Assembly: GCA_977018835.1 (NCBI GenBank)
Contig: OZ361256.1
Span: 6,138,001-6,202,000 of the forward strand
Reading direction: 5' to 3'
Source: Minutocellus sp. GHC0000111
Lineage: Eukaryota
DNA: 64,000 nt
This document shows positions 1 through 42,125 of the stretch, piece by piece (the stretch's first letter is position 1; the number at the start of each line of letters is the position of its first letter). The translations under genes and the position numbers were made by a program. Below the pieces are notes generated by a model. The model was not told the origin of the DNA. It made no database searches and saw only the letters and a program-made list of their open reading frames with translations.

Positions 1-2365
1 GGAAGTTATCGTGAGCAAAGTCAAGGATGGAACAAGTCTCGTCGACGGATGAGAGGGAAAAGTTGACTCCAGAGGAGTAAGTCTTATGGATGCGCTGGTG
101 CTGAACAATGAGCCTACCAGCTAGAACGATGAGCTCGGTCTCGTCACTGCATAACCCGCCAGTGGAATACGCCCTAGCTGCGCTCTTCCAGAGTGCCACA
201 CAAGATTGGTGGATTTGGGTAGCTTGCCCCCGTCCCATGTCTTCCAAACGACAATCTTCAAGTCCCTTGAGCTTGACACTAAGATCACCGGCGAAGGGGC
301 AGATACCAATACGACGCAGATTATAATTCACATTTCTCTCAATTTTGAGCTCCTGATGTGGGCCAGCAGTCTCTTCCGGGTACATGTACCGGATGCTCTC
401 GATGAGGCTGCACGCCAGGGACTTATCACCGATGACTTCGGTGTATGTTGCGAGATTGGGAAGATGGAATCTAAGATCGGGCGAGAGGAATTTGTCATGA
501 ATGAGATCGACCAAACGATGAGCCTCGCAAGGAGAAACGCTATCTTTTCCGAACTTGTACAGTCGCTTGTGGCAAAGAACGATCTGATTGGCAGCAGTAG
601 CAAGGTCGTCGGCGACGTGGGCTCGGGAGGCCTTGACGAGGGCGCTGCGCCGATGCTTTGCGAGAGATGTCCATTCATCGATGCAGTCGTCGAGGATAAT
701 CTTGCCCTCATCACGTGAGTAGCCTTTGCCATACATGTAGAGCTGGGAGCGGCCACCCTTATCGTCTAGATCGGCCTCTTTTTCTTCAATATCCTCCTGA
801 AAGGTGAATTTGGAAGTGATGCGAACGAGAGAAGCAAGCTTGGCTTTGAGGATGGTACCGGTATCTCCCAGCTGGATGATCACTGAGCGGTCGTTGTTGG
901 CCCAACCCAACATACGGTTGGTATGGGCCGGGCCATACCCAACGTAGGCGGAGTGATGTCCCTTGGTCTCGACGAGGATGGTTTGAAGCGCGCCAATGAC
1001 GGGTCCAAGAAGGTTGGACGAATACCGCATCATTTGCGATGCCGAGGATGACTGGGCCTCAATTTTCTCGCCGATGAGTCCCTTCCAACCCATCTCAAAG
1101 GCTGGGCGGAGGAACTCGGCGTACACAAAGTCCAGGAAGTGGAGAGATACGACGGGTTGGAGCCGGAAAAGTCGTCCCAAGCGTGGGTCTGATTGGAATG
1201 CGAATAATTCGAAGAAAAGAAAAGTGAAGGAAGAAAATAAAATTTGAGCGGTTGTGATCTGTTTCATATGTAGACATATCTTTCAAGGCAATCATAAGAT
1301 AAGACGTGATTTACTATATGCCCTACAATTGCTCACCTTGTCGTTATTGGCATCGTTGCCGGCAGGAGAAGTAAAGACACCGTGCAGGGCCAGGTATCGC
1401 TGAACGATCCATCCGGCCTGCCGGGCCAAAAGTCGCCGATCCACGGGAGGGATGATGTGCTGGGCCAGCTTGTACTTGCCGCCGTCGTTGCCGTCATAGT
1501 CGGACCGGTCCTCCCAGTCACTGTACATCCTGTCGTCTTCGTCCCTGTCGAGACGACGGTCGATGGTTTCCTCCACGGCACGACGCCATACTCGGGCAGC
1601 TTCCAGGAGGATGGGAAGGTAGTGTCTCCGGGGGACGATGGCGGTGATGACCTTGCCGGCATCTCTGGCGAAAGCAGTTGTGGTGGCCGCCAATGGGTGC
1701 AGATCCATGATAGTGTTGAGCAGTTCCCTCCACGAGATGCCTCGTTCGTAGGCCTCGTTCCGTTTGTAGGCCTCCTCGACGGACTCGGCTTGGTCGAGCA
1801 TCGAATCGAGGATCTGGGCATACAGTTCGTCGGCGGTGATTCCCTTGTTCGCGCTTGTGATCGTGCTGCTGGCATTTGTCGATGCAATTGCATTACCGAA
1901 GGCAGAAGTACTAAACGTAAAACTGGCACTTGTCATGCCAAGGTCGAGTAGGCTGCCGCTGAACGGCGAAATGGACGTATTGCCTACTTTTGGCTGCTGG
2001 ATGAGTGGAGGTGCTTCTGGCGATGACGATGCCGGCGTACATGTAGATGAGGAGGAGGAATATGCCGCCGAAGACGAAGAAGTCGAGGATCGGCCCAAAG
2101 TGCCGACTCCGTCGAAAGGCGACTTCTGGAACAGATTGAGATTACTTGCAACGAGCGACGACGATGTAAGTGTTACATGTAGGCCCAAGTCGACCAATTC
2201 CTGGACGGACTTGGGCGTTTCACTCTGTGTGGGCATTGGCGCGGAGAAGGCCCGCGATAGCATTGTGTGCATTTGCATTTTCTGCTGTTGTTGTTCGGCC
2301 GGACATAACTGGAGGTTGGCGGATTTGGCGGTTCCGTTAGAGGCCAAATGGAGATCGTGCTGCAT
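1..2365 (-). CDS. Hypothetical protein, 2 exons, runs off the window start (Ser-rich N-terminus, helical C-terminal part)
   Basis: ORF 1292-2494 ends at an AAG|GTGAGC donor; intron 1189-1336 has a polypyrimidine tract and CAG acceptor. Downstream, the minus strand is open for ~1150 nt (SLHFLDFVYAEFLRPAFEMGWKG...ILDFAHDNF) to position 1, which the ORF track misses. One apparent 1-nt deletion near 1155 (aaccc). Confidence 0.6.
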
Positions 2366-3717
2366 TGCTCGACGGACGACGAGGGGATGAGCCGGAGAAG
2401 ATCGTCGATGCCGGCGTCGTCGTCGTCCTGCTTGCTCCTGCTTGCAGCAGCGGCGTGACCGGTTGGAGCCATCGTCGTGTTGTCGTGTTGGCAAATTTTA
2501 TGCTAGAATTGCTGCCTGCCTCGTGTTGTTTGGATTGTGCGACGGCGGGAGTGCAGAAAAGTGTGTTGCCGGAAGTTGCCCTTGCCGCAGGACAGGCCAA
2601 AAAATGACAGGCTAAAAATTGAACAGGCTGACGTGGTTCAGTAGATTTCACTGTCCTTGAAGAAATGAGCACAAATGTCTTCTGACGTGTTGCTTACATG
2701 AACGGGGTTCATGCAGAAATTTTTCACTGTCCTTTCATTTATTTCCGTTACATTCAAAAAGAAAGTCGGTTCGTTTCTTACAATACATGTCGGCGATGTT
2801 CCTGACAAAAAGGCCTACCAGTAATGACGTCTGATCTGCATGGTCTGATTCTCTGCAGAGAATCGACCAGGCTGGCAAATTCCTCGCAAAGAGGTCAAGC
2901 ACAGAAAGCCGATTTCAGAAATGATGGGACGAAATAAGTATGCGGCCTGTCCCCGTGAATGACTCATCCTGCGTATCGCACGTCTTTTTCTGAAGTCGTC
3001 GAATGTGGTCGAATCTTACCTAAAAATGTGGATGAATCTCTCCAGATTTTGGTTTCCCACGTCCCACGTTGGATCTCTCTTTTCCCATGCGAAAAAAGGG
3101 CGCAATTCCAGAGAGATGGAGCAGAAGCAGGTCGTCAAGCATGCAGAAAAATAGCTATACCGCCAGGTTTATGACTACATGCAGGCCTGTGAAGAAAACC
3201 TTCGTGTGTGCGTTGGCATCGCACGCATATAGCACCTTCCGTCGACAATTATTTCTTCTCATGTATAAGTAAAGTCTACGATACATGTATTGAATTGTCA
3301 TCTTGAAGAGATTTCTTCTCATGTACATGCACCGGTACATGTATCCCGTCGTCTGAAATCGCGAAAGCTTTACAGGCATGCTGTTGCCTCAGTGAAAAAT
3401 GTGGTGTGCAACGTGGTGCGATAGTTTCTTCCCTCTGTACACTGTAATGCAGTGACGAAACCACAAACATGTAGAGTAGGTGCCGCTAGCGCTATGAGTA
3501 AATTGTGGCTGCCTCTGCTCGCTTCATTTTCTTTTTTCTTCATATTTCATCGCCTTATAACGTCCTCGCCTTACAACGCCGATCTGATAAGCGTTTATGT
3601 AGAAAGTTGCCATACTGTAATACACATGTCAAACTCGGTCCATTGGAATGTTGGAATAATGTCTCTCTTCCGCATCCGATATCATTCTATGCATTCTATG
3701 CATCTAGCAAGGAATTC

Positions 3718-4530
3718 CTATCTTATTTGACATTTGTAAAAATCACACCGTGTCTTCAGCTCATGAACGTTTGCCGCTGGCTTTCCTGCCAAGGGACGTA
3801 GCAACGGCACCTGATATAGCAACAACCCCACCGGATCGGAATCAAACTCATCCATTTGCGATACAATCAAGTTACTGTCCTTTGGGTCAGTTTTCAGTGT
3901 GGTTGTGACCAGATATGGTTTCAAATCAATCTGCACACCTCCCAAAGTAACCATGCCGGAATTCCTCCACAAAACTGTAATGGTATCCGGACCAGTGGCG
4001 GAACAGCACACCAGTTCACATCGAGCTGTGCTTTGATCGAATAATTTGCGCACGGAACGGCAGTACTGCTCATATCCCACCAACGACACCTGCGGATCAC
4101 TAAATGTGAAGGCGTCACTGAAAAGTTCCGGCCGGCCCCTGCCGGTAACGAACCATGAGTTTTCCACGAGACCATCATTGATGGCATCGGCCATTTGCTC
4201 TATGGTCAGATGTTGCTTGGGCATGCTCCAGTCGATAGCATCGAGGGGAGAGGGATCGTCATCCGATACGTAGTTCTTGGCAACGTTGATAAAGGCCGAT
4301 TTAGCCTCGACGTTGCTGTTATTATCGTCGGCAAAAGCAGGAGCTGTGGTAGCAATTGCTGCTACATGTACAGCGGCAGTTTGAACAAATGAACGGCGGT
4401 CCTTACTCGCCGAGAGGTTGAGTGCAGATGTCAATGTAGCAGAAAGTAGCATCAGCACTACGGTCACAATATGTGCCGCAGAAGTACGCCGTGCATTTGC
4501 ATATCTTTTAAAAGGTTCATGACTTGACAT
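3718..4530 (-). CDS. SnoaL/NTF2-like (DUF2358-type) protein, probably plastid/thylakoid-lumen targeted
   Basis: FSDAFTFSDPQVSLVGYEQY motif is typical of DUF2358/SnoaL folds. Hydrophobic signal peptide followed by a Tat-like DRRSFVQ...APAFA segment. Start codon uncertain. Confidence 0.6.
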   Translation of the reverse strand: MSSHEPFKRYANARRTSAAHIVTVVLMLLSATLTSALNLSASKDRRSFVQTAAVHVAAIATTAPAFADDNNSNVEAKSAFINVAKNYVSDDDPSPLDAIDWSMPKQHLTIEQMADAINDGLVENSWFVTGRGRPELFSDAFTFSDPQVSLVGYEQYCRSVRKLFDQSTARCELVCCSATGPDTITVLWRNSGMVTLGGVQIDLKPYLVTTTLKTDPKDSNLIVSQMDEFDSDPVGLLLYQVPLLRPLAGKPAANVHELKTRCDFYKCQIR

Positions 4531-4729
4531 ACACATCTGAATGAATGCAATCAGCCTGATGCTATGCCCGCCTTGGCTGTTATCTGAGGGCACGCCGTGG
4601 CTTCTCGTACGTGTATCTTTCTCCTCTGCTCTGCTGCTGCCACAGAGCATGCAGCTTCCTGACGCCGCTTGTCGAGCTCATAACCTGATTCCCAGCCGCT
4701 CATGTCTTCTTGCTTGCAAATCCTTCGAA

Positions 4730-6921
4730 ATGACTATCGACGAACAGCAGCAACCCGCTAGTACCACCACCACCGACCAACTCCGACCCATGGACGACAA
4801 ATACCTCGTCCCGACGACCATCCCATGTGTGTATTACGTCCCATCTCTCCTTTCCAGTGATGATGCCGCTGCACACTACGACACGCTCCACAAAACTGTT
4901 CCATGGGAAAAGACACCAAAGATCAATCGGTGGGTGGCCCTCTACGAGGACGATGCCGACCTCCAATATCGCTACCGGGATGCTCCGACCGAATCCACAT
5001 CCAAGTCCGGCAATACTGCCAACGAACCCACCAACAAGCCCATATCGTCCTGCCCCCCCCATCGACGCCATACGCACCGCCGTCCAGGAGTTGTATCGGC
5101 AGCAAACCGGCAAATCGGTCCATTTCAACACCTGCCTGGCCAACTTCTACGAGGACGGCACCCAGAGGATAGGCTGGCACACCGATCGGGAGGAGATTGG
5201 AAGGTCGACGCCCATCGCGTCGGTGTCGCTGGGTGCAACGCGCACATTTCTGCTCCGGCACAAGCTCAACGGCATGAGCGACCGTGCCTCCGTCGAGATG
5301 GAAAGCGGGAGTGTCGTATTTATGGAGAATGTCTGCCAAGAGCAGTATTTGCACAGCGTGCCCAAGCAGGCGGACGTCACCGAGGGACGAATCAATCTAA
5401 CGTTTCGATGCAAGACGGAGCACACGGCCGGTGAGGAGGAGCACGAACGACGGGATCGGTGGTTGGAGCGGATTACCGATGAGAAGAAGGCTGAGAATGA
5501 CGACGATTTGGAAGAGATGCTGGCCGCCGAGATCAATGGCGGTGGACACCGTCCTGTGGAAATATTTGGGGACAACATTTGTGTTGGCACATCGCATGAT
5601 GATGAGTACGATGGAATAGTAAGATACACCGTATCGTGCAACATTGGGACGGAGGCTCAATGTGCCGCCGAAATTCGGGAGAAGCTGGCCATCTCAGTGG
5701 AGGAGGATGAAAGCGAATCGAATTCCAATGGGTGGGACGTCGTGGCCAGGCCGTACGGTGTGGCTGGATATGTGGCCTGCGTCGCTCAGGATGGCAGTGC
5801 CGCCATGGACAATGACCAAGCCGCATCGAAACTGCTGGAACTCCGCTCGGCGTTGAATGTGATGCAATATCACGATCATTTTGTCTTAGAGGATGTAGCA
5901 CAGGCCAACGGTGGCATTGCCCTATCGCAAATCGACGGCGAAATGCTGTATGCATTCTACAAGAAGCTGCTGGAGGAGGATGCCGATGGCCGTGTACCAA
6001 CGCTGGCCAAGGCGTCGGCGGACAATCCACTAACCTTTCGTGTGACTTGTGAGCGCACAGGGGACCACGGTTTCAAGGCGCCGACCGTCGAGTATGAAAT
6101 GGGAGGGGCCTGCGCCGAAACCTATGAGAATTGCAAGCCCAAGATGACCGACTTTGACATAAACCTCCGCATCGACGTGGTGGCTAATCGCATCATTATC
6201 GGGACGCAGCTCAATGTGGAGGATCTGTCCAAGCGACACTTTTTGAGATATCGGAACTCTGTGACAATCAAAACCAACGTTGCGTACATCATGTTGCGAC
6301 TGGCCAATATTCAGCCGGGCAGTGTGATTGTAGACGCATTTTGTGGGTCCGGCACCATCCTTCTTGAAGCGCTAGAAATGACCAACAAGAAAGTACAAGT
6401 AATTGGAATGGACGTCAATCGTCGAGCCGCCGAGGGAGCTGGCGCAAATGCTGTTTCAGAAGGGTACAGCCCAGAAATTGCCGAATTCCACTGCTCGGAT
6501 TCCCGTGGATTGCGAAGAATCGTTGGAGATGATCGTAAGGCCGACGCCATTGTATCCAACATGCCTTGGGGTGTTCGCACCGGGCAGAATCAATCAGTCA
6601 ATGATCTTCAACAGCTAGGGTTGGATGGTATGTGCTCAAGCCAGGAGGGAGGATTGTAATGCTGGTTTTGAGAGGGTTGCAGCTAGTGCGTATCCTGAGA
6701 AAGCTAGGAGGAAGATATCGCATCATCAAGTGCATGGTCGTCCGAACAAAAACAATCTGCCGTGCATCCTCGTTGTGGAGAAGGTGGACAGAGACCTTCT
6801 ACACGAGTCCGTAAAGAATCAGCTTGCCTACATGTCTCAATTTGTGAATGTCTCGAAGGAAATGTACCAAGCCATCAACAACGAGACCATTGATGAGAAA
6901 AATCACGTGGCAAGTAGCTAA
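4730..6921 (+). CDS. Fusion of AlkB-family (ALKBH2/3-like) 2OG-Fe(II) dioxygenase with THUMP domain and UPF0020/Trm14-THUMPD3-like SAM methyltransferase
   Basis: AlkB: NxY, GWHTD (HxD), HSVPK (H), RINLTFR (RxxxxxR). THUMP: TFRVTCERTG...EMGG. MTase: DAFCGSGT (motif I), GMDVN, SNMPWG (motif IV), VLKPGGR. Both halves lie in one ORF (4827-6659). Frameshifts near 5055 (C8 run), ~6620 and ~6750. Confidence 0.85.
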
Positions 6922-29483: not shown

Positions 29484-31106
29484 TCACTCTTCCTCATCTT
29501 TCTTGATGATTCGACTTGCATCTATTGGTATGTATCCACGGCCACCAGAGTGGTTGCAGAAGCCATAGAATTGATCTGGGTCAAATTTACCCTCGCCCTT
29601 TCTCCCCTCCACCTCGGCCCGTACTCGGAACCACTCATGGTGAAGCTTCCGACACAGCCTATGCTGGAGCATATCCTGACTATGAGGCAGACACGACCAC
29701 GGCTTCTGGCACAGCGTGAAGTGAGCAGTGTATATCTCTTCAACGTCAATCTCTCGACAATCCTCGCAGTCATCTCGTCCATCGCGGCAGTTGCCGCTCA
29801 CTTTGTCATTTACAGTCTTTTGGTCGCGAGGATTGTCGGCCATGGTATTGTAGTAGCACCGATTCAACTCCACGGCTGTATTGGGATGAAGCGCATCGTA
29901 GAAGTAGGGAACAATGCCCTGGAAGGTCAAGCTACCATAGAAGGGTCCGAAGCCGAGGCCGCCCCATCCCTTGCCTTCCACAAAGTTGCCCTCCCGTATA
30001 ATCTTTTCATATTCGTGGAATGGCTCCATTCCAGTACGAATGACGAGGAAGCCACCCTGAACGCCCACATGCTTCTTCCCGGCCTTGACCATGTTGTAAT
30101 CTCGTGTAAAGAAGGCATCGACCTTTGGTGGCAGGGGCTTATCGAACATGATGGACAACCTCTTCTCAATCTCCTTGGGGGCATTGGGCTCCTCATTGAG
30201 ATCACTCAGTATGACATCGAACAAATCGTCCATCGGTTTCATTACAATGGTATCCAAATCCAAATGTACGACAACGGGATGCTTCAATATGGTGTAGGCA
30301 TGGAGCTTGATGTATTCCTTCTCGCCGCAGCAACCATTGTCCACGACCTTGGTCCGCAAGAAATCACCCTTGATTTCGTCGACGGGAACGGGCACATCTC
30401 GTATCAGAAGATCGTAGCCGATGTCAAACAACGGTCCGGCGCAATCAATGGCGTCCGGATGCACGATCGCGTACATTTTGTACCCATATCTCGACCCGCT
30501 CTCCGGGTTGGCATGGGAGTTGAGGTGGATGGAATGCTTGAGAACGGCAGCACCGTCAATGAGCGGGTCGTCGGTCCCCTTTGGACAGCCGGTGAGGGAT
30601 ATTACGTATCCCACGTTCCATTTCGGCGGCGCCGGAGTCGGTGGCTTGTACGGCCGAGGCTTGCGTTTGGGTTTGTTGTGGTTGACGGTCCGCGGCGGAC
30701 GGTTCTTCTTCATTTCGGCAAGCCGTTCCGTCAGTGTTTTGGCGTCGAGTTTTGGCTCGCCCGCTGCGCCCTTGTTGTTCTGGTCCAGAGTTGTGTGCCG
30801 TTCTTCGTCCGATCCGCTTTTCTCATCGTCACTCCGCCGCTTTTCTTCCTTCGCCGCGGCAGTCTTTGCTGCTGCCGAGGTGTCTACCACAACCTCGACC
30901 CTGGCCTTGCTGGGCAGCGCATGTGACTGCACCCCCACAGCGTCGGGTAGACTGAACAGGAAGGCATATGCCGATATGAGAAGGACGGCCGAGAGCATGA
31001 TCAAGCACAGCGCAATGTTATGCGCTGCTTTCGTGGAACTTATTTTCTGAAAAGACGATTGTCGTGATTGCCGCGACGAACGCAGCGGGGCTCTGGGTCG
31101 GGCCAT
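29484..31106 (-). CDS. Glycosyltransferase family 8 (glycogenin-like), type II membrane
   Basis: N-terminal TM; KLHAYT...VVVHLDLDT (DxD), QGGFLVI, QG, HFTLCQKPW. Confidence 0.85.
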   Translation of the reverse strand: MARPRAPLRSSRQSRQSSFQKISSTKAAHNIALCLIMLSAVLLISAYAFLFSLPDAVGVQSHALPSKARVEVVVDTSAAAKTAAAKEEKRRSDDEKSGSDEERHTTLDQNNKGAAGEPKLDAKTLTERLAEMKKNRPPRTVNHNKPKRKPRPYKPPTPAPPKWNVGYVISLTGCPKGTDDPLIDGAAVLKHSIHLNSHANPESGSRYGYKMYAIVHPDAIDCAGPLFDIGYDLLIRDVPVPVDEIKGDFLRTKVVDNGCCGEKEYIKLHAYTILKHPVVVHLDLDTIVMKPMDDLFDVILSDLNEEPNAPKEIEKRLSIMFDKPLPPKVDAFFTRDYNMVKAGKKHVGVQGGFLVIRTGMEPFHEYEKIIREGNFVEGKGWGGLGFGPFYGSLTFQGIVPYFYDALHPNTAVELNRCYYNTMADNPRDQKTVNDKVSGNCRDGRDDCEDCREIDVEEIYTAHFTLCQKPWSCLPHSQDMLQHRLCRKLHHEWFRVRAEVEGRKGEGKFDPDQFYGFCNHSGGRGYIPIDASRIIKKDEEE

Positions 31107-31757
31107 CCTTGTGACACGAGTTGAGTGGCTTGCAGAGATGAAAAATGAAATGTGATCCGACGAAGACCCGGGCGGGCGTGAAAAGGAGCACGTGATTTGG
31201 CACTTTATCGAAACGCCGCTGCGAAGGATCGCAAAAGAATGAACGCTATCCTCTAGCTAAGAGGTTGGAGGAAACAAATGCCCCGATGGTATCTCTTGGG
31301 CTGGTGGTGGTTGGCAAAAATGAGCAAACAAGCAAAAACCAAAACCCTGGAGTTACAGAAAATACCAAAGCCCCCAAAATATTTCTCGGGGCATTGGTCA
31401 AATCTTCAAATTAGACGGCGGGACAGCGGGACTTTCCGACGCTCGGCGATGTTGGGAGTTCTCTCATCTGACGTAGCCATGGTCTGACGTGGCCGTGGGT
31501 GTAAGAAGTGAAGCCTTTCGATTTCTGATCTCGTACACAACAAAACGATGAAATCTCTTTCTTGAGAAAGAACGGCCTTCTGAGAACACTAGTACTTTCA
31601 CAGCCGGGAGGCCAACACAAGCCCGTTGCTTTCCTGCGAGGGCCAACATGTTCTTCGAGAGGAGACGACATCATCCCCCATTACGTCCGCATTATCTGTC
31701 CAACTCTTTCCACCCCATCATCACATAACTGCACGCCCAAACAATACATAGAGCACA

Positions 31758-32795: not shown

Positions 32796-33163
32796 CTCGA
32801 TCTGATACTGACGCTGACAACACCATCCAAATCAAGAAGAATACCACACATTCTGGTTGCTATCTCTCCCCTTATCCAATGTAAAGTACTGTAGATTGAC
32901 AATATTGGGCTGACAACCATGCCCAAAGAAAGACCTGGATACGAGAAAAAAGAGAGGCAATGTCAATGAAGAAACTTTGTAAAAATAGACACAACAACGC
33001 TAACTTAATAACTCTATATGATACTATGCTCCAGATCATAAAAAATGAAAACTGCCTCCTGCTGTGCATATTGTTCTGGCAAGCGGTACATGTTATTCGG
33101 TCTCCTGCTGTGCATATTTTTCCGGCGCGAGCTAGCTATCCTGGCGTTTCGCCGCACGTGAGA

Positions 33164-34282
33164 TCAGCCCAAAATATCATCTACATTCTCCAATAGATCG
33201 ATGCCCTCTCTCTGCAAGAAGCTGCCCTTTCGACGAAAGTTTCCAAATACTCTCGAGCCAACGATGAACAAAAGTGAGCCACCGCCGCTTGTCCGATTCT
33301 CATGGCCAGTAGATCCATCTCTTTTGGTAAAACTCTGATGCACCGACCCCACTGGATTCAGCTCTATCTGCCCCCTGCATATCGACCGTTCTGTAAATGC
33401 GCCCCTTTCACCACAATCTGGGAACGTAATGCGGCTGGAGATATCGTTTGTAATGGTTGCGATCTCCTCTGGGGTTGGTTGAGTTGTAAAAAGTCCCCCC
33501 ATTCCTCCAACTTCCATATCGGCACTTCGACACAGTGTGTCTTTTGGCAGTATGACCTCCATGGCACGTCGTTCATGCATGCTGCCCACAAGCGGAACAA
33601 ACACTTCTATTGCAGGATGAACATGTAGATTCAAGCAACATCCTGGTGGTATGGCCGCCAGATACATGCTCAGGGGATGCGAATTGCTTTGAGCACAAGT
33701 CAAAACTTGATCCAAATCATTTTGCGGCAGAATGGACAACAATGCATATCGCCATTCGAAATCAAATTTAGTTCGATCGGCTTCCGTTGGAAATAACACG
33801 GGTGCATGAAATCCTGTATACATGGCGTCAAAATGCTCTTGGATGAGAAGAGATGGGGATATGGTCATAATGTCGGAGGAAAATTTGCCATCCTCATTTG
33901 TTGAGGCGCCGAGCCAGGTGGGTTCCGATCGTTCTACTTTGGTTAGTGATGATAACCAGCTGTGTATGGCATCGATATGTGATTCGTAGGGCGATGTGTC
34001 GATACGAAGCGATGAAGATTTTGGTATGTTACCGCCGGTGGCATCGTCATCTTGCGTGTAGGAAAGAGATGAGTACGATCTTTCTCGTCTACGAACAAGA
34101 GTTCTCATCGTTCGATGATGCCCATTCCAACACTTTCTGTGCCGAAATTTAATATGCCGATTTTGCAGTCTGGATCCACGAGAGGATATGCAGTACTCAG
34201 GAACAAAACCAACCGCATTATGTGAAACAATGGCAACAAGGAGAGTTGCCAATGCGGCCGAGTTCTTCTTTCGGGGCTTCAT
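33164..34282 (-). CDS. Hypothetical secreted/plastid cupin-fold protein
   Basis: Signal-like ALATLLVAIVSHNAVG-F. Cupin motif 1 IPPG..LNLHVHPAIE and motif 2 NPVGSVHQSFT, separated by an insertion. Confidence 0.6.
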   Translation of the reverse strand: MKPRKKNSAALATLLVAIVSHNAVGFVPEYCISSRGSRLQNRHIKFRHRKCWNGHHRTMRTLVRRRERSYSSLSYTQDDDATGGNIPKSSSLRIDTSPYESHIDAIHSWLSSLTKVERSEPTWLGASTNEDGKFSSDIMTISPSLLIQEHFDAMYTGFHAPVLFPTEADRTKFDFEWRYALLSILPQNDLDQVLTCAQSNSHPLSMYLAAIPPGCCLNLHVHPAIEVFVPLVGSMHERRAMEVILPKDTLCRSADMEVGGMGGLFTTQPTPEEIATITNDISSRITFPDCGERGAFTERSICRGQIELNPVGSVHQSFTKRDGSTGHENRTSGGGSLLFIVGSRVFGNFRRKGSFLQREGIDLLENVDDILG

Positions 34283-34317
34283 CTTTTGGCGGTACGTAGC
34301 TTTTGACGGGTTCTGCC

Positions 34318-34429
34318 CAAGAGCACATAACAAATAACAGGGTGGTCCACGCGCGCGTTTTTGCGCTCACCATGTTCGGCACTCTTTTTTTGGGGTGAAT
34401 GTGGAATCCGTTAATTCTGGCCCAAGCGC
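34318..34429 (+). repeat. Left terminal inverted repeat of the transposon
   Basis: CAAGAGCACATAACAAATAACAGGGTGGT...CACCATGTTCGGCACTCTTTTTTTGGGGTGA...TTCTGGCCCAAGCGC; reverse complement of 39772-39891. Confidence 0.9.
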
Positions 34430-34593
34430 CTTGCGCGCGCGCACATCGAAAATTCCAACCCTCCTTTGCGCGCACGCGCCACGCGTCGGAACTTGCCCTC
34501 CATTGTACTTATTGGCCGGCATCGGTTCTTCTTTTCGCGAGCATCGACCGCGGATGCACATCACCTGTCGTGCACCCTTTGGTTGCCGCGGTC

Positions 34594-37500
34594 ATGAGCA
34601 GCGGCACCCCTGCTGGTGCCAGGAAATGCCTGTGCAGGCATGACGATTGCGACAAGATACGTCGCATTATCGACGAGTCTCACAACAACATCAGAAGCGG
34701 CGGGTTCGAGTTCAGATTGAAAGATAGTGACAAGAGTAAAAAATACCAGGCAGTTCTGAAGAAGAATCTCACTTTATCTGGATTCAAATTTGATGTTGAG
34801 AGGTACGAGATTGCGAAGCATCATTTCTCTGCTGACGCGCTTCAATACTTTGCTGGAGAAACAGACGGCAAGAGCCATTTTCCGACAACGCCCGTTCCTG
34901 CGGAGATTGCAAAGAGACACGGTTTTGCAGAAGCCATCAACGAGTTCAATGGTAAATATTTCTGGCCTCCAGACCATACTATCGATCAGTCCCGATCCTT
35001 GATGATGGTGCTCGGTGGCAAAAGCTCTCGGTCGGCAGCCAGCGTCAAGCGGCTCTTGGAGGCGGACCAACATCCGTCGGTCCCTTTGGGAACGCACAAG
35101 ACCCCCAAGAAAGCGAAGGTTGGCAATGGGGCGGCCGCTCCGATTACACCGGCGTGTGACACCACAGGCATTAGTGGTGGTTCCACCGGTGCTGGCGGTG
35201 GCGATGGATCTGGCGTAGTGCCAATCTATGATGCGTGTCGGTCCGGTATTGGTGGCCATCCTCAGTTGTTGAGCGTGCTGCAAGCTGGAGACATTGGTCG
35301 TGGAGTGTGTTCCAAATACTTCTCTTTCACGCAAAAGGATGGAGCATGGCGGAGCCCGGACTGTTCGATATTTATTGGTGCAACTTCCGAGGCTCCGGTG
35401 GACGTGTGTGATGGCTGTGCAACCGTATTTTCTGCTATCAGTCCTGATAAATATCCTCGGCTGTACGACGAGGTTGGCTTGGTGCTGCCATCCGCCGCCG
35501 ACTTGGACTTGACTGCTTCACTGGTGCGAATGCACAGCATGCAAGGAGAGGGATTTGTTGCGTCCAAGGAGGGTCAGGCAGCAATGCGTATTTTGCGGGG
35601 CAGCCATCGGTATTTTGCTAGCGTAAAGCTAGGAGAAAGGAGTTGGGTCGATTTTTGTCCGTCGTTCGGCGACGCTTCGTGTGGGCTGGTCTCCTTAGGT
35701 GAATTCGAGCGGGATGGCATTTTGTGTGGTCCGTGCTCGACTGAAAGGAAAAACTTCCTCCGACGGGAGAACAGGAAGCAACTGAATCGCGCCAAGCAGG
35801 TCGGCGCCAGCAGCCGAGCTCCGATCAAGCACCTGACCCCGACGAGGCTGAAGGAGCGCCAGCAGAACCAACAACGGAAAGCTGCCCGCTCCACCAGGGA
35901 CCGCCTGCGCTGCGCCAAGACAAAGCTGGAGAGTGATGCTTGCAAAGTCGCTTTTGACCTCGAGAAGGACGGCGTCATGCTTGACCTCTTCAAGACGGCT
36001 GCTGACCACGTTGGCAGCGACCATGCTTCGTTCGGCGAGGTCAGTGCTCTTGGAGGAGCTCGCCAAGGAGGCTGTCAAGGACGCTGCCGGCGATGCAGCT
36101 GAGCTGGCTCTGGACCAGACGGCTGCAGTCGGCGACCTGGTGGGCTTCATTTTGGGTGAGATTCAAAACTCAGCTCGCCAGCTTGCAGGGAGGCCCCGCA
36201 CGGCGGCGCGTTTTTCTCCCAGGGTGGTGCGACTTTCGCTGGGCCTCTGGATGAGGAGCCCTGCAGCCTACAAGGTCCTCCAGGACTCAGGGCTCATGGT
36301 TGTGCCATCGGCCTCCACTTTGAAGCGACTCAAGGCAAAAGTTGCTGTTTCGGACGGCCTCTGCCCTGAAGTCTTTTTAGCTGGCTTGGCGACGCCTTTG
36401 TCTCGCGAGGGAGCGCAGCAGCCACGGAGAAAAGGGCCTGGCTGGCCACTTGATGTGCGACGAGATCAAGATCAAGTCTGGCGTTGCCTGGAACACTGCC
36501 ACGCACGAGGCGGTTGGACTCGTTGGCGTTGAGGGGAAGGTCGAGCTCCAAGACGACTTGCGGGCCATCCTGAGGGGCGACGAGCCTCCAGGAGGCGACA
36601 GTGACGCCAGCAGCGCTGGCGACGCCCTTGTTGCAGGAGGGACGAGCAAGCCAGCCACCTACGTGAACCAGTGGAATTTTCGCTCCGTCTACGGAAGGAC
36701 TTTTCTCCTCAACTTCTTCTTCAACGGTGGGTCTCTCAGTGGCGACGAGCTCCTCCGGCAGCTCTCACGCACCAAGTCCACGGCGGGGTCGAGCTTGCCG
36801 GCGCCAAGGTCCTGGGGGTGTGCCTGGATGCTGGAGAGGGGGCAACAGTCGCCTCTGCTCCCTCTTGAGAGGAGGGCAAAAGGTCGGCGACGCCGCCTGG
36901 GTTTCGGCGGAGCTGGTGACGTTTGCGAGCCCTGCCTGCCCAAGCCGAAGCGTCGCAGTGTTTTTCTGTGCGACCCACGGCCGCCTCAAGTCACAGCGAA
37001 ACGCCTTCAGCAACAGCTCAGTCACCCCTGGTGCTAAAAAGAGAACTTTTGTGACCACAGAGGGAGTGGCTTTTGGCCTGGAGAGCATCGAGAGGTGCCT
37101 GGTGCGGGACCAGAAGCGGTCCGCCAGAAAGACCAAGCTCACGCCAGCAGCGGTTCAGCCGAACAAGTGGGAGAAGATGAGAGTGGCCCTTGCAAAGGCC
37201 GTCTTTGACCCAGACACTAGAGACGAAAATATTTTTTACATTGGATGTGAGCTTGGCTGCTTGGACGAGCTAAGGAGCAGTGGAGAGGGTGGAGGTGAGG
37301 TTCAAGGCCAAGCCCTCGCAAGAAGAAGGATCGAGGCCCTCAAAGTCAAGCTCGCGGCCGCTGCGGAGCGCCTAGGCGAGCGCCTAGGCGACGCCAACTT
37401 TCAACAGCTACGGCAAGACCTGGCTCACGTAGAGTACAACTTTCATGTCGGGACTATTTTTATTGAAAACTTTTTGAATGGCGAGGTCAGTGTCACCCCA

Positions 37501-39195
37501 GACAACATCGACGAGAAGGAGAAAGAGACTAGGTCTGCTTTGGAGTACTTCGAGGCTTGGCGACTCGCCTCTTTGCAGCTCAAGCAACAAGGCAGCGGTC
37601 CTTTATTTCTACCACCACGTACAAAAACCTTCGGATTGGTGTTTGCGGCTTCTTTCAATACTGCCGACTCGTCTTCCTGCTACCGAACCCTCCCTCGTAC
37701 GTAAAATTCCTCCCATGCCAACCAGTCATCGCTTGAAGCTACCTTCTCACACATTCGATACTTGGGCGGCGACTCTGTCCACAACTATCCGTCCGCAATA
37801 ACAGCCATCAACTCTCAAGACAGCATCCAGATTATGAACGAATCCAACCCAAACTACGAAGGCGACACCACGGAGGTAGCAGTGTCATGGAATCGTCTGG
37901 AGTCGGTGATGGGGCGCACAGACGATCGCCGAGCTCTGGTGGTAAAGTCGTGGCGAGACGAGAAAAAGAAGCCGGCAGAGGCATCCATCTCGATACTTCC
38001 TCCTTGCGACGATGAGGATGGCGAGGGAGATCAACCGGCGGTTGGCTCCACCGAGCGCATGCGCAGTCTGCACAAAACGATGGCGACGTACAACATTGAT
38101 TCCAACTTCTCTGACTACCTGCTGGATGACGAAACATTTGAGGGAATGGCAAGAGTGAGCGTTGGAACAGAAGAAGAGAAATGTTTCAAAGCAATCGCAT
38201 CGTTAGATGAGGAAGACGAAGTGCTCTTCAATTTGGCGTGCCAGCAAATGATACTCACAGCATTTACATCACTAGACAAGAGCATCATGCAGAAGTCCGG
38301 CCATAAACAGTCATTCTGGTGGCACCAGCATGACTTCATTACTAGCAAGAAATTTCAAGATCTGCGGAAGCTGCTGCCGGCGTCTCTGTCCCAGTCTCAT
38401 CTTGCCGCCGCCATCGTGGAGCAACATCTCGCTCGGCTTTTCAGTAATTGGCTTGATGAAGCCATCATCGATACTTTCACATCGCCCAGTGATTCCAGTA
38501 CCGCCGCTATCACCACCAACGGTAACGCAAAGGGATCCATCGACCAGGACGAAGAGAATTCGGAAGTAACCAACTTCGTCGGTTGGGCCATGAAAGAAGT
38601 GCTCGATCAATGTCGTGAGAAGTGGCAAGACTCTGAAAGCTTCTTCTACGAAGAAGACAACGAAGACGAGGATGAAAATACGTGTGAGAACAGTGATCGG
38701 AAGGCAGTGCTGCATGTGAAATCAATGAGACTGTTGCATCGCGAAGCAATAAAAGACGCAGGATACTTACAGAAATATTACGCTCCAATCGACCAGATAC
38801 GAAATCGCGGTGGCCTATTCCTCCTGGCCCCCCAATATGTGCCCTTTGGAAGGATGGTAATAAAAAGAACAAGGGAATTAGTGAATGAAAAGACCATCGA
38901 AGAAGTCGGCAAAGAGGCAATCAAGGAGGCATACAAGACCATCATCGGCGACGAAGACTTGTGGGGACTATTCAACAAAGCAGAAAACGATATTGACTTA
39001 CCGGAAGGCGAAAAGAAGATAATATTCACCAAGATTGTCAAGAAAGCCTTCCATGCACGCGCTGGAGAAGCGACGCGACGATACAATGAGCAGCAGATTG
39101 ATAAAGCCGACATGGCCTTGCGAGCAAAATTGAAGGCGACAAGTGGAGCAAAGAAGAAGTTAGATTTTGAGGGAGATGTTGAAAAATGCACATAA
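34594..39195 (+). CDS. P-element-like transposase (~1500 aa when stitched), interrupted by several frameshifts
   Basis: THAP-like N-terminus (CxC..DC...IAKHHFS...PVP); SPAAYKVL....VVPSASTL; LMCDEIKI (D1); GVCLDAG (D2); CATH..KSQRN; WEKMRVALA; HANQSSLEATFSHIR (E). Frameshifts between ~36040 and ~37710. Confidence 0.82.
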
Positions 39196-39771
39196 AATAA
39201 TGTACATATTCGTATCTGTACACAAACTTAGCAAAGCAAGAAATGGAAAGCGGGTGACTCCAGCGGCAAAAGGGGCTGACAAGATACGGACGCAAGGTCC
39301 CTTGTCGGCCACATCGGCTGCCGCCATTGTCGACCGTGCTACCATTACCAGCTGAACTCAGTATGATTCGGGAGAATGAATACATGATACCCAGCCAAGA
39401 ACCGTCCATAGATGCCCTCACATGAATAAATTCACGAACAGAATATTTCTCACATCTCGATGGGCAGCACGCCGGAACCGATGGGTTGATCAATACAAAA
39501 GCACCGGACCTGCCAGTTGGCGGCAATAAGTACGACGGGAGGGGGCGGCGGCGGCAGCTCGCGCTGACGGTGGGCAAGCAATCGCCCATTTGCTTAGGCA
39601 ACAACGCCGCCGGATCGGCGTACTTGTTGCAGGCACCACGCAAGAGGGCACCTGCACGCCATGGCGGCTCGTTCCGCCGGAAGGGGGATGTGGGCGACAC
39701 GACGAAGCAGCCCTTCGGCTTATGGCGTAGTAGTAGTATTTGCGCGGTGCGCGTTGAAGATGAAAGATGCG

Positions 39772-39891
39772 CGCTTGGGCCAGAAATTAACGTCATCCAC
39801 AATCACCCCAAAAAAAGAGTGCCGAACATGGTGGAATTTTTCCCTTGCTTTCTGCCATGCGTGCACCACCCTATTTTTTGTTATGTGCTCG
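39772..39891 (-). repeat. Right terminal inverted repeat of the transposon
   Basis: CGCTTGGGCCAGAA...TCACCCCAAAAAAAGAGTGCCGAACATGGTG...ACCACCCTATTTTTTGTTATGTGCTCG. Confidence 0.9.
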
Positions 39892-40170
39892 GTTCTGCCT
39901 TGCTTTTGCGCGAAGATGCGAGCTGCTGATTTCGTCTGGCCTTCGCCCGACGCAACAAACCTGCCCTGCTGCGTTTTTTCGATGCCAGCCACCAAGATGC
40001 TGATGCGGAGACACACTCTTACGTATGCGATACCTCTTACATTCATTACATCATTAAGTACACCATTTTGGGAATGGTTTTGGTATCATATCACTTACTA
40101 GGTCTATAGCTTTTATAATACTGTATATTGACTGATTTTTTTCTACTTCCTTCTTCCCGATGTTGCATGA

Positions 40171-41588
40171 TTATGTCACCAACTCGGCGGCAATCTGCCA
40201 AACATTGACCTTGCCATCATCTCCGGCGGTATAGAACGTGTTGGACGGCCCGGCACGGATCGCTCGGACGGCCCCGTCGTGGCTCTTGGTGTACTTGTTG
40301 GACAGCTTGACCAGCAAACAAAACGCGGGAGTTTGGCCCGACGCCGACTGCAGGATGCTCCGGATCATAATGTCGCCGCTCTCCAACCCCACCAACAAGA
40401 GGGGATCGTTCTTCACGTCGGCACTGAGGGCCATGCTGACGATGCCCTGGCCGTGTCCCTCGGAGAACATGCACTGCCCGTCGGTGGCGTTCCACGCCTT
40501 GACGGTCCCGTCCAAGCTCGAGGAGAGGACGAAGGTCACCTGCGGACTCTCGAAGAGGACCAGGTCGGTGATGGCCGCGGTATGTCCTACGCCCGTCGCC
40601 TGCTGCTGTCCTCCCTGTCCACCCTGCTGCCCCGCCGGACTTTGCGGTACCGGATTGCCCCCAATGGTGCCGGGGGTGGCACTCGTGATGAGGTACTTGC
40701 AGGTTCCGGTGGCCAAATCCCACAACCGGATGGACTGGTCCGTGCTGGACGACCACAGCATGTTGCCACCCACAATGACCAGGCCGGTGATCTCGGAGGC
40801 ATGGCCGTGCAACGTCTTGCGCAGGGCGAAGCCACCCTTGCCACCGTTGGCGGTCTGGTCGAACTGCCACGTCCGGATGACGCCGCAGTGTCCACCGGAG
40901 ATCATGACGTCGTTGACGGTGGCAAAGGCACTCACAGAACCGGCGTGGGCGTACGGGGCATGCTGGCTGTCCATGTGGAGCTCGAGGGGCGGGTCGGCGG
41001 GGTTGGCCAAATTCCACACGTGGATCATCCCCACCTTGGCATTGGGGAGGATTTGCGCGCTGCCTTCAAAGCCACAAAACAGGTAGTTGGGGACGCCACT
41101 TCCAGAGTTTCCACCTTGCCGCCGGTCATCATGCAGTGTTCGAATTCCTTGGCAAAGTTGGCGGCGGTGTTCCAGAGGCGCCAATAGCCGTCGTGGGATC
41201 CGGAGAAGATTTTGATTTGGCCCGGTTGGGATTCCCATATCGCCACCGAGGAGACGGCCGCAAATTGGTTCTGCTGCTGGTTGTAGCGGTTCTGCCCGTT
41301 GTACCGGTGATGTCCTCCGCCCTGCTGCTGATTCTGCTGCGTCCGGTTGGAGGCCTCCAGACTGACGTGGAGCTTGACGGCGTGGGAGAACTTGCAGTTG
41401 GTGCCGTGCGGGCAGTTGCCGCCAGTGGTAAAGTCGCGGCAGGGCTTGAGACGGGGCTGCTGGCCGTGGTCTCCGTCTCCTCCTCTGCCGCCTCCGCCGC
41501 CGTACGAGCCCCGCCCTCCGCCGAAGCCGCCGCCGGAATTGCGACCCCGGCCTCGGCCTCCGCGGCTTCCTCCGCCGAAGCCGGACAT
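40171..41588 (-). CDS. RGG-rich, CCCH zinc finger plus WD40-repeat protein (ZFWD-like)
   Basis: RGG boxes; CRDFTTGGNCPHGTNCKFSH (CCCH); WD repeats (FSGSHDGYWRLWN, SSSTDQSIRLWD, SSSLDGTVKAWN, TAGDDGKVNVWQ). Frameshift near 41090. Confidence 0.88.
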
Positions 41589-42125
41589 GCTAAATGGGTT
41601 TAGAGTGATACGGGTGCCTATTGATGTGTTTGGACTCGACTCGAGAGCAGGGCTGCGTCGAGCAGAGGCACGTCCGGTGGTCTGTTATCGATATCGGCAC
41701 GAGATGTGCTGAAAAACATGTGAACAATGAGCGGCGAAGCGAAAGCACGACCAACGGAATTTAAAATAGGGGGATTTGAGGAGTTGACCCGAAAGTTCGA
41801 GATGATGTGATGCCCCGCTATCAATCGTGCTGAAGTCAAGATGAGACTGATTTCTGGAAGTAGCGCAGGGACCCAGCAGGAGCAGCCAGTGGCCTCTCGA
41901 GCGTATCACCTATTCGGCAGCACAACGCTTGCCCGTTATTCCCAAGCGCAGAATATAACAAATCATTTCTCTTAAAGTTCCTCAAGTTTGTTCGACTACG
42001 ACGTATTCGACGAAAAGTCAAACAAACAAACCAACCGGCCGGATACGCAAGACAAAACAAGCAACGCCAAGGAAAGATCTTGCCCGAATATATAGTAACT
42101 CAATCAGTCAATCAGTCAGTCAGTC

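What the first reader, a model, noticed from the sequence alone, without database searches (positions are those of the whole stretch)
34310..39899. Complete P-superfamily transposon in a diatom, with bipartite TIRs and an 8-bp TSD
Seen: TSD GTTCTGCC on both sides; TIRs made of an outer ~30-bp block and an inner ~60-bp block separated by non-matching spacers. The right end (..GTGCTCG) appears to lack 2 nt relative to the left (CAAGAGCAC). Established: P elements have CA..TG ends, 7-8 bp TSDs and THAP + DDE transposases. Inference: a fairly recent insertion of a P lineage that is, to my knowledge, little described in diatoms.
Basis: partly seen in the sequence, partly recalled or inferred. Interest (0 to 1): 0.8.

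Follow-up and report, generated by a model that had tools for sequence, protein, structure and literature searches.

The report
Diatom P transposon with antisense RNA
This is a multi-copy cut-and-paste P-type transposon in a diatom whose transposase gene is overlapped by a backwards-running, multiply spliced RNA that also appears in related elements and likely acts as a built-in brake on jumping.

Summary
The element is real and P-type. It spans 34318-39891. A profile of its transposase family hits only Drosophila P transposase in the PDB (E 3e-16; fold Z 20.4). Other copies end CAAGAG...CTCTTG. Public contigs show about 7-10x flank depth and an empty site in 3 of 4 runs laid.

Corrections: the copy is not intact. 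Three frameshifts are shared by the majority copies, leaving a KP-like 502-aa N-terminal product; four more look like long-read errors. TSD length is 8 or 9 bp. No THAP model matched.

Two new points. (1) The bipartite ends have a conserved 21-nt left versus 31-nt right spacer in this and a 66%-identical sister element, like the unequal spacing of Drosophila P ends. (2) The transposase C-terminal coding region holds minus-strand GT-AG introns. Three are seen in one RNA run and a fourth in stored proteins. The same four gaps occur in a Minutocellus polymorphus relative, and 3 of 3 coding-region donors are conserved in the sister element. No conserved antisense ORF was found. A silencing role is inferred, not shown. 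The scan's notes held nothing on this element.

The parts
34310..34317 (.). left target-site duplication GTTCTGCC (9-nt reading starts at 34309)
   Evidence: one copy at the empty site in X1, X2, X5
34318..34352 (+). left outer TIR, begins CAAGAG
34353..34367 (+). left spacer (21 nt between the GGGTGGT and CACCATG anchors; same length in L001)
34368..34429 (+). left inner inverted block; inferred transposase-binding region
   Evidence: role inferred from Drosophila P (PMC7776569)
34594..39195 (+). P-type transposase gene, about 1500 codons, broken by at least 7 frameshifts in the window; 3 (near 36040, near 36428, 37712) are also in the majority contigs
34594..36102 (+). 502-aa N-terminal ORF (Cys/His motifs plus coiled coil, no catalytic core); KP-like product inferred
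   Evidence: (P0212 99% identical, same stop)
34627..34824 (+). N-terminal CxC-x(3-5)-C ... AxxH motif; THAP-like by recalled pattern, no Pfam THAP match
   Evidence: invariant in 6 of 6 aligned; no PF05485 hit
36459..36461 (+). first catalytic Asp (LMCDE)
   Evidence: 68 of 69 rows; aligns with P transposase FDE
36827..36829 (+). second catalytic Asp (CLDAG)
   Evidence: 76 of 76 rows
36967..36978 (+). CxxH signature
   Evidence: C 78 of 79, H 76 of 79
37735..37737 (+). catalytic Glu (QSSLE)
   Evidence: 64 of 67 rows; aligns with P transposase
38119..38258 (-). antisense intron D, 140 nt, GTGAGT...CAG
   Evidence: skip reproduces P0010 with 1 mismatch in 110 aa; also P0012, P0004, P0174; retained in the X6 contig
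38646..38770 (-). antisense intron A, 125 nt, GTAAGT...TAG
   Evidence: X6 joint, P0009
38844..39001 (-). antisense intron B, 158 nt, GTAAGT...AAG
   Evidence: X6 joint, P0009
39117..39453 (-). antisense intron C, 337 nt, GTGAGA...AAG; spans the transposase stop codon
   Evidence: X6 joint; P0004 match ends at 39117
39454..39482 (-). short first antisense exon as far as X6 contigs reach; the true 5' end is not shown
   Evidence: tables 2, 5, 8
39270..39316 (.). small hairpin, the only clearly conserved stretch of the 3' non-coding region (78% over 54 nt with L001); folding z about -2, weak
39771..39833 (-). right inner inverted block
39834..39858 (-). right spacer (31 nt between the anchors; same length and nearly the same sequence in L001)
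39859..39891 (-). right outer TIR; window copy lacks TT (or TTG) of the family end CTCTTG
   Evidence: (table 7)
39892..39899 (.). right target-site duplication GTTCTGCC

Best explanation
This is a multi-copy P-superfamily DNA transposon of a diatom whose transposase gene is overlapped by a spliced antisense RNA that likely acts as a built-in brake on transposition. Shown: ends, transposase class, multiple copies, an empty site, and minus-strand GT-AG introns. Inferred from Drosophila P: the transposase binds the inner blocks and cuts at the CAAGAG/CTCTTG ends, pairing a left end with a right end whose spacer is one helical turn longer. Inferred: a promoter about 410 bp inside the right end drives a long non-coding antisense RNA. 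Its splice donors are kept inside the C-terminal coding sequence so that it is processed like a stable mRNA. It would pair with or interfere with the transposase mRNA and feed the diatom small-RNA/DNA-methylation system. Most copies also carry a frameshift that would give a 502-aa DNA-binding, non-catalytic protein, a possible KP-like repressor. Odds: P membership 0.95; antisense splicing real 0.9; repressive role 0.6.
For: Class: the profile of 108 sequences hits only 6P5A/6PE2 (E 3.2e-16); model pLDDT 84; Foldseek E 2e-12 versus >=1.6e-3 for the next entry; VIA Z 20.4, rmsd 4.1, 425 aligned, next Z 9.0; D/D/E and CxxH conserved. Copies: contig depth about 1290 inside versus 131-199 on the flanks in X1 and X2; near-identical ENA proteins on contigs of 9 different lengths. 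Empty site in X1, X2, X5. Spacer 21 versus 31 nt in both elements; Drosophila P has 9/21 bp (PMC7776569, passage). Antisense: 3 CT..AC joints in RNA run X6 and none in X1, X2, X5; canonical donors and pyrimidine-rich ends. The only two GTAAG donors on either strand of the element are the two used. P0009 equals the A+B skip with 2 mismatches in 301 aa, and P0010 equals the D skip. Minutocellus P0004 matches end at 38118, 38643 and 39117, against boundaries 38118, 38645 and 39116. P0174 ends as predicted for a D skip in the L001 family. 3 of 3 coding-region donors are identical over at least 6 nt in L001 against a 12-16% background per 6-mer. Diatom 25-30-nt RNAs cover silenced TEs on both strands (PMC4247016, passages).
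Against: Strand is inferred from splice signals only, since contigs give no strand, level or ends. Only 1 RNA run was laid, and a further read check was not obtained. X6 is a metatranscriptome and also holds an unspliced contig across intron C (39087-39482). Only 1 of 4 acceptors (D) is conserved at the same position in L001. The donors sit on conserved codons, and 57% of conserved-residue codons are identical anyway. No DNA is held for P0004, P0174, P0240 or P0259, so their CT..AC ends were not tested; P0259 is 95% identical to P0004 and not independent. None of the distant (20-30%) relatives among 86 proteins scanned showed a D-sized gap, though most are probably genomic. L001 has no TSD. 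No intact copy of the window's own family was seen. No small-RNA, methylation or activity data.
Confidence: 0.62

Rival explanations
1. Same P element, but the antisense RNA is a by-product. A cryptic promoter near the right end transcribes backwards, and the spliceosome uses sites that the A-rich C-terminal codons happen to provide.
For: The minus strand of all four introns, but also of exon 2, is pyrimidine-rich. 3 of 4 acceptors are not conserved in L001. Intron D is spliced in some contigs and retained in X6. Donors overlap conserved residues.
Against: The same four gaps occur in a family with 43-71% identity. 3 of 3 donors are conserved; my arithmetic on the background gives about 0.2-0.4%. 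In X6 no contig covers intron A (bin depth 29.0 equals 47.8 x 166/274, my arithmetic), which hints that the spliced form is the main one there.
Confidence: 0.24
2. The antisense RNA is an mRNA for a second small protein, as in the convergent mudrA/mudrB layout (recalled).
For: If transcription starts at or beyond 39796, a 189-aa ORF runs through three junctions.
Against: X6 contigs do not cover 39576-39849. From 39482 the longest early ORF is 104 aa. Exons 4 and 5 have stops in all three antisense frames in both elements. The 3' regions of the two elements share no protein-level similarity beyond the hairpin.
Confidence: 0.07
3. The antisense RNA is read-through from the neighbouring minus-strand WD40 gene into this one copy.
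For: The WD40 gene ends at 40171 and points into the element's right end.
Against: X6 has no cover at 39576-40123. Element contigs have depth 48 versus 8 for WD40, a weak measure. The same gaps occur in other families.
Confidence: 0.05
4. On the insertion itself, and not exclusive of the others: the filled site in the window is a rare or single-molecule allele, or a long-read misassembly, not a fixed insertion.
For: Across 34318-41100 the window differs from the runs by 8 tandem 2-3-nt duplications and a missing 13-mer. In the WD40 gene 7 of 8 substitutions are non-synonymous, and a 2-nt duplication cuts its ORF from 471 to 187 aa. No listed contig shows the right filled junction; 429 pieces were not shown.
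Against: An exact target duplication at correct family ends is what transposition makes and chimeric assembly rarely makes. In X1 and X2 the left-flank contig breaks exactly at 34317, as a branch into the element would.
Confidence: 0.25
5. It is a Mutator-like element with a 9-bp TSD and GAG ends.
For: The exact direct repeat is 9 nt, and the window's right end reads ...GTGCTC.
Against: Family ends are CAAGAG/CTCTTG. The fold matches P far better than the Mutator-family ISCth4 (family label recalled; E 2e-12 versus 1.6e-3; Z 20.4 versus 7.5).
Confidence: 0.02

Closest known systems
Drosophila melanogaster P element (transposase PDB 6P5A/6PE2; review PMC7776569, passages read)
   Same: HTH, split RNase H with GTP-binding insertion, DDE; CA..TG ends; outer TIR plus internal block with unequal left/right spacing; about 8-bp TSD; internally deleted derivatives; truncated N-terminal product like KP.
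   Different: 5.6 kb versus 2.9 kb. The transposase is about 1480-1530 aa and, in L001, one uninterrupted ORF, whereas P has four ORFs joined by regulated sense splicing. About 480 aa follow the catalytic Glu. No Pfam THAP match. The introns are on the antisense strand; 'antisense' occurs 0 times in the review.
HeT-A/TART telomeric retroelements of Drosophila (bioRxiv 10.1101/2023.05.27.542554, passages read)
   Same: Spliced antisense transcripts recognised by CT-AC gaps.
   Different: Those are non-LTR retroelements with a host role at telomeres. Here it is a cut-and-paste element, and the splice sites lie in transposase coding sequence and recur between families.
Maize MuDR (convergent mudrA/mudrB transcripts; layout recalled, not shown in the passages of 10.1101/2023.06.05.543741 read)
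   Same: Transcription inward from both ends.
   Different: mudrB is a protein gene beside mudrA. Here the second transcript overlaps the transposase and has no conserved ORF.
Kolobok superfamily (PMC9587614, passages read)
   Same: C/DxxH signature; reported from a diatom.
   Different: Kolobok makes TTAA 4-bp TSDs and has RR..YY ends; neither holds here.

Membership tests
P superfamily | DDE transposase of P type (HTH, split RNase H, GTP-binding insertion) | tested here: met
   Tested on intact relatives P0007/P0023 (47-65% identical to window segments). PF12017, PF21787, PF21788 occur in order, at or below curated cut-offs. Sole PDB profile hit is 6P5A. Fold.
P superfamily | C/DxxH signature between second D and E (PMC9587614) | tested here: met
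   C 78 of 79, H 76 of 79; window CATH at 36967-36978
P superfamily | 5'-CA...TG-3' termini (consensus recalled) | tested here: met
   CAAGAG...CTCTTG in other copies and in L001; the window copy's right end is short by 2-3 nt
P superfamily | 8-bp TSD | tested here: inconclusive
   8 or 9 nt both fit; L001 has no TSD; no paired flanks of other copies were obtained
P superfamily | Unequal spacing of TIR and internal site at the two ends | tested here: met
   21 versus 31 nt in 2 of 2 elements; that the inner block binds transposase is untested
P superfamily | N-terminal THAP (C2CH) domain | tested here: inconclusive
   No PF05485 hit in window or L001 N-termini or in 20 of 20 relatives. No atlas hit; no THAP in the PDB profile search. 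A CxC-x(3-5)-C...AxxH motif is invariant in 6 of 6. The domain was not folded.
P superfamily | GTP dependence and staggered cleavage | not testable with these tools
   The KMxV motif of the insertion domain is conserved; no assay
P superfamily | Internally deleted non-autonomous copies | tested here: inconclusive
   One X6 contig (depth 5.5) joins 34503 to 38834-42 and then 39001; single contig
Mutator/MULE | MuDR-type transposase as nearest fold | tested here: not met
   P Z 20.4 versus ISCth4 Z 7.5; E 2e-12 versus 1.6e-3
Kolobok | TTAA TSD and RR..YY ends | tested here: not met

The most novel reading that the evidence does not exclude
A diatom lineage of giant P transposons carries a conserved, multi-intron antisense gene written into the transposase's C-terminal codons. 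The element itself supplies the spliced RNA that silences it, a self-encoded counterpart of P cytotype. The overlap is maintained by selection on splice donors across families, making the C-terminal domain a dual-coding region.
Probability: 0.4. Interest if true: 0.78.

Novelty: new variant of a known kind. Interest (0 to 1): 0.58.

Why it matters
How cut-and-paste transposons restrain themselves in eukaryotes outside animals and plants is open. A conserved spliced antisense RNA with mapped donors can be tested directly by synonymous donor mutation in a transformable diatom. The 21/31 spacer offset extends the unequal-end architecture of Drosophila P, likened to RAG 12/23 in PMC7776569, to a stramenopile. 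The intact 1481-aa sister element L001 is a candidate native insertional tool for diatoms. Practically, transcript-derived fragments of these transposases can be antisense-spliced RNA read in the wrong direction.

Tried and rejected
No own genome is held, so copies and MITEs could not be counted directly. Pfam on 5 window transposase fragments gave one weak hit (PF21787, E 0.0019). Single-sequence PDB search and single-sequence fold (pLDDT 37) were uninformative; the alignment-based versions worked. Alignment A1 was unusable for locus search. With A2, metagenome contigs gave 1 locus from 256 pattern matches and viral contigs gave 0 from 190. Rfam had no match in 33000-41000. The exact look-up of the N-terminal ORF found nothing. 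The frameshifts as sense introns: rejected, since L001 aligns codon for codon across them and there is no GTAAG donor on the plus strand. The long C-terminal domain has no convincing fold match (Z about 6); it was not folded alone, so nothing is concluded. A second internal skip in P0174 and one in P0008 could not be tied to CT..AC sites. Hairpins in the spacers were weak or absent. Paper searches for P elements in diatoms or stramenopiles and for spliced antisense RNA of DNA transposons listed no paper on this; only listings were seen, apart from five papers read as passages. Repbase, Dfam and most subscription journals are outside the library, so prior Repbase entries for diatom P elements cannot be excluded. 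No supplements were read. Earlier scan notes gave one unrelated bacterial note.
Full report
Observation. The window has GTTCTGCC at 34310-34317 and 39892-39899; the exact direct repeat extends to 9 nt. Random position pairs give an 8-nt match within 3 nt in 49 of 200,000 trials. Inside lie an outer inverted block (32 nt, 91%) and an inner block (63 nt, 92%). No second copy of either end is in the window, and no whole genome is held. The named homologues of a neighbouring gene are diatoms wherever a taxon is readable among the 120 listed of 800. The element sits 36 bp upstream of the first ATG of a leftward gene and 280 bp below the stop of a WD40 gene.

Copies and empty site. Of 23 runs listed, 4 were laid. 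In X1 and X2, contig depth is about 1290-1800 inside and 131-199 outside, a ratio of 6.5-9.9 for the core. The tool warns that this is no copy number. Proteins about 99% identical to the window lie on ENA contigs of 9 different lengths. A joint skipping the whole element and leaving one target copy stands in X1, X2 and X5. X1 and X2 may be the window's source; X5 is another study. Loose ends show that other copies end ...ATGTGCTCTTG, so the family ends are CAAGAG/CTCTTG. The TSD is 8 bp if the window lost TT and 9 bp if it lost TTG. No listed piece shows the right filled junction (429 pieces not shown), and this was not resolved.

State of the gene. The ORF from 34594 to 39195 needs at least 7 frame changes. 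The runs differ from the window by seven 2-3-nt tandem duplications in the element and a 13-nt gap. An eighth duplication lies in the WD40 gene and cuts its ORF from 471 to 187 aa; 7 of 8 substitutions there are non-synonymous. I infer long-read consensus errors. The gap totals of the long contigs (6, 7, 18, 31) equal the sums of the listed indels, by my arithmetic. So three frameshifts remain in the majority copies: near 36040, near 36428, and 37712. P0212 and P0232 stop at the same places; some copies lack the 37712 shift. The first shift leaves a 502-aa N-terminal protein without the catalytic core, comparable to the 207-aa KP repressor (PMC7776569, passage). That role is inference.

Class. 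An intact sister element, L001, spans 177-5759 with CAAGAG/CTCTTG ends and one 1481-aa ORF, 66% identical in DNA over the core. Pfam finds the P HTH, RNase H N-terminal and GTP-binding insertion models in order, at or below their cut-offs. The ESM atlas agrees. A 108-sequence profile hits only the Drosophila P transposase in the PDB (E 3.2e-16). D, D, E and CxxH are conserved in 68/69, 76/76, 64/67 and 78/79 plus 76/79 rows. The model (pLDDT 84) matches 6PE2/6P5A at E 2e-12 and Z 20.4, next 9.0. THAP was not detected; a CxC-x(3-5)-C...AxxH motif is invariant in 6 of 6 full-length members. The lineage is large: 1148 representatives at E<=0.001. Of 10 long hits looked up, 2 carry taxon names, Skeletonema dohrnii and Thalassiosira profunda.

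Ends. Between two fixed anchors the spacer is 21 nt on the left and 31 nt on the right in both elements, and each spacer resembles its counterpart in the other element. Drosophila P has 9 and 21 bp between TIR and transposase site, likened to the 12/23 signals (PMC7776569, passage). The bipartite TIR is therefore best read as the ordinary P end with a one-turn offset. Binding of the inner block is inferred.

Antisense RNA. RNA run X6 shows three joints with CT..AC ends that X1, X2 and X5 lack. On the minus strand they are GT-AG introns of 125, 158 and 337 nt with pyrimidine-rich ends. The only two GTAAG donors in the element are two of these. Stored Logan proteins add to this: P0009 equals the A+B skip (2 mismatches in 301 aa), and P0010/P0012 reveal a fourth intron, 38119-38258. 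P0004, labelled by its source as Minutocellus polymorphus MMETSP1070 (a transcriptome project, recalled), matches the window in four blocks. Three end at 38118, 38643 and 39117, within 2 nt of intron boundaries, and the middle block lies in the shifted frame expected for exon 3 (tblastn with tightened gap settings). A rough post-hoc chance for three such ends is about 1e-5. P0174 ends as a D skip predicts in the L001 family, and P0240 spans only the exon between D and A. In L001, 3 of 3 coding-region donors are identical over at least 6 nt against 12-16% background, but only 1 of 4 acceptors is conserved in place. No conserved antisense ORF was found. Limits: one RNA run laid; contigs give no strand, level or ends; an unspliced contig crosses intron C; no DNA for the diverged proteins; distant relatives show no such gaps. 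One X6 contig also suggests an internally deleted copy of about 1.25 kb that makes the same spliced RNA.

Mechanism and rivals. I commit to a P element with a self-encoded, spliced antisense brake (0.62). The rivals are a by-product of cryptic transcription (0.24), a small antisense protein (0.07) and read-through from the WD40 gene (0.05). Diatom 25-30-nt RNAs cover silenced, methylated TEs on both strands (PMC4247016, passages), which gives a plausible route, untested here.

Literature. Spliced antisense transcripts are reported for HeT-A/TART (10.1101/2023.05.27.542554, passages). Nine searches (listings only) showed no paper on diatom P elements or on conserved antisense introns in a DNA transposon. 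Repbase, Dfam and most subscription journals were not searchable, and no supplements were read.

Verdict. New variant of a known kind; interest 0.58. The P assignment alone would be modest. The conserved antisense exon structure and the spacer offset are what merit follow-up.

Noticed in passing
window 40171-41640 (minus strand): WD40 gene with an N-terminal Cys/His zinc-finger-like stretch (CCCH by eye). Its frameshift at 41089 and 8 substitutions are absent from the runs laid, so this part of the assembly looks error-prone.
   Followed up: yes
window 33164-34282 (minus strand): Gene without a Pfam match whose first ATG lies 36 bp from the element's left end; the insertion could affect its promoter.
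   Followed up: partly
proteins P0184/P0305, P0209, P0177, P0213: Distant relatives carry extra C-terminal domains: BRCT plus Ulp1 protease in Thalassiosira profunda (E 2e-30), BRCT, or SAP.
   Followed up: no
window 35700-37400: The catalytic core is GC-rich (61%) while the C-terminal part is 49% GC and A-skewed; the antisense introns lie in the low-GC part.
   Followed up: partly
window 38622, run X1/X2 loose ends: A second derivative or rearranged copy joins unrelated sequence at 38622, and depth is higher from there to the right end.
   Followed up: no
L001:5516-5541: 26-nt near-palindrome in the 3' non-coding region of the sister element.
   Followed up: no
proteins P0008, P0174: Further internal skips in related transposases (L001 about 2391-2686 and 3115-3628) that may be more antisense introns or deletions.
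   Followed up: partly
one search run list: Sponge and marine metagenome and metatranscriptome runs of three studies hold 47-71% of the words of this stretch; only X5 and X6 were laid.
   Followed up: partly
window 29484-31256 (minus strand): Glycosyltransferase family 8-like gene by source labels of homologues, widespread in diatoms.
   Followed up: partly
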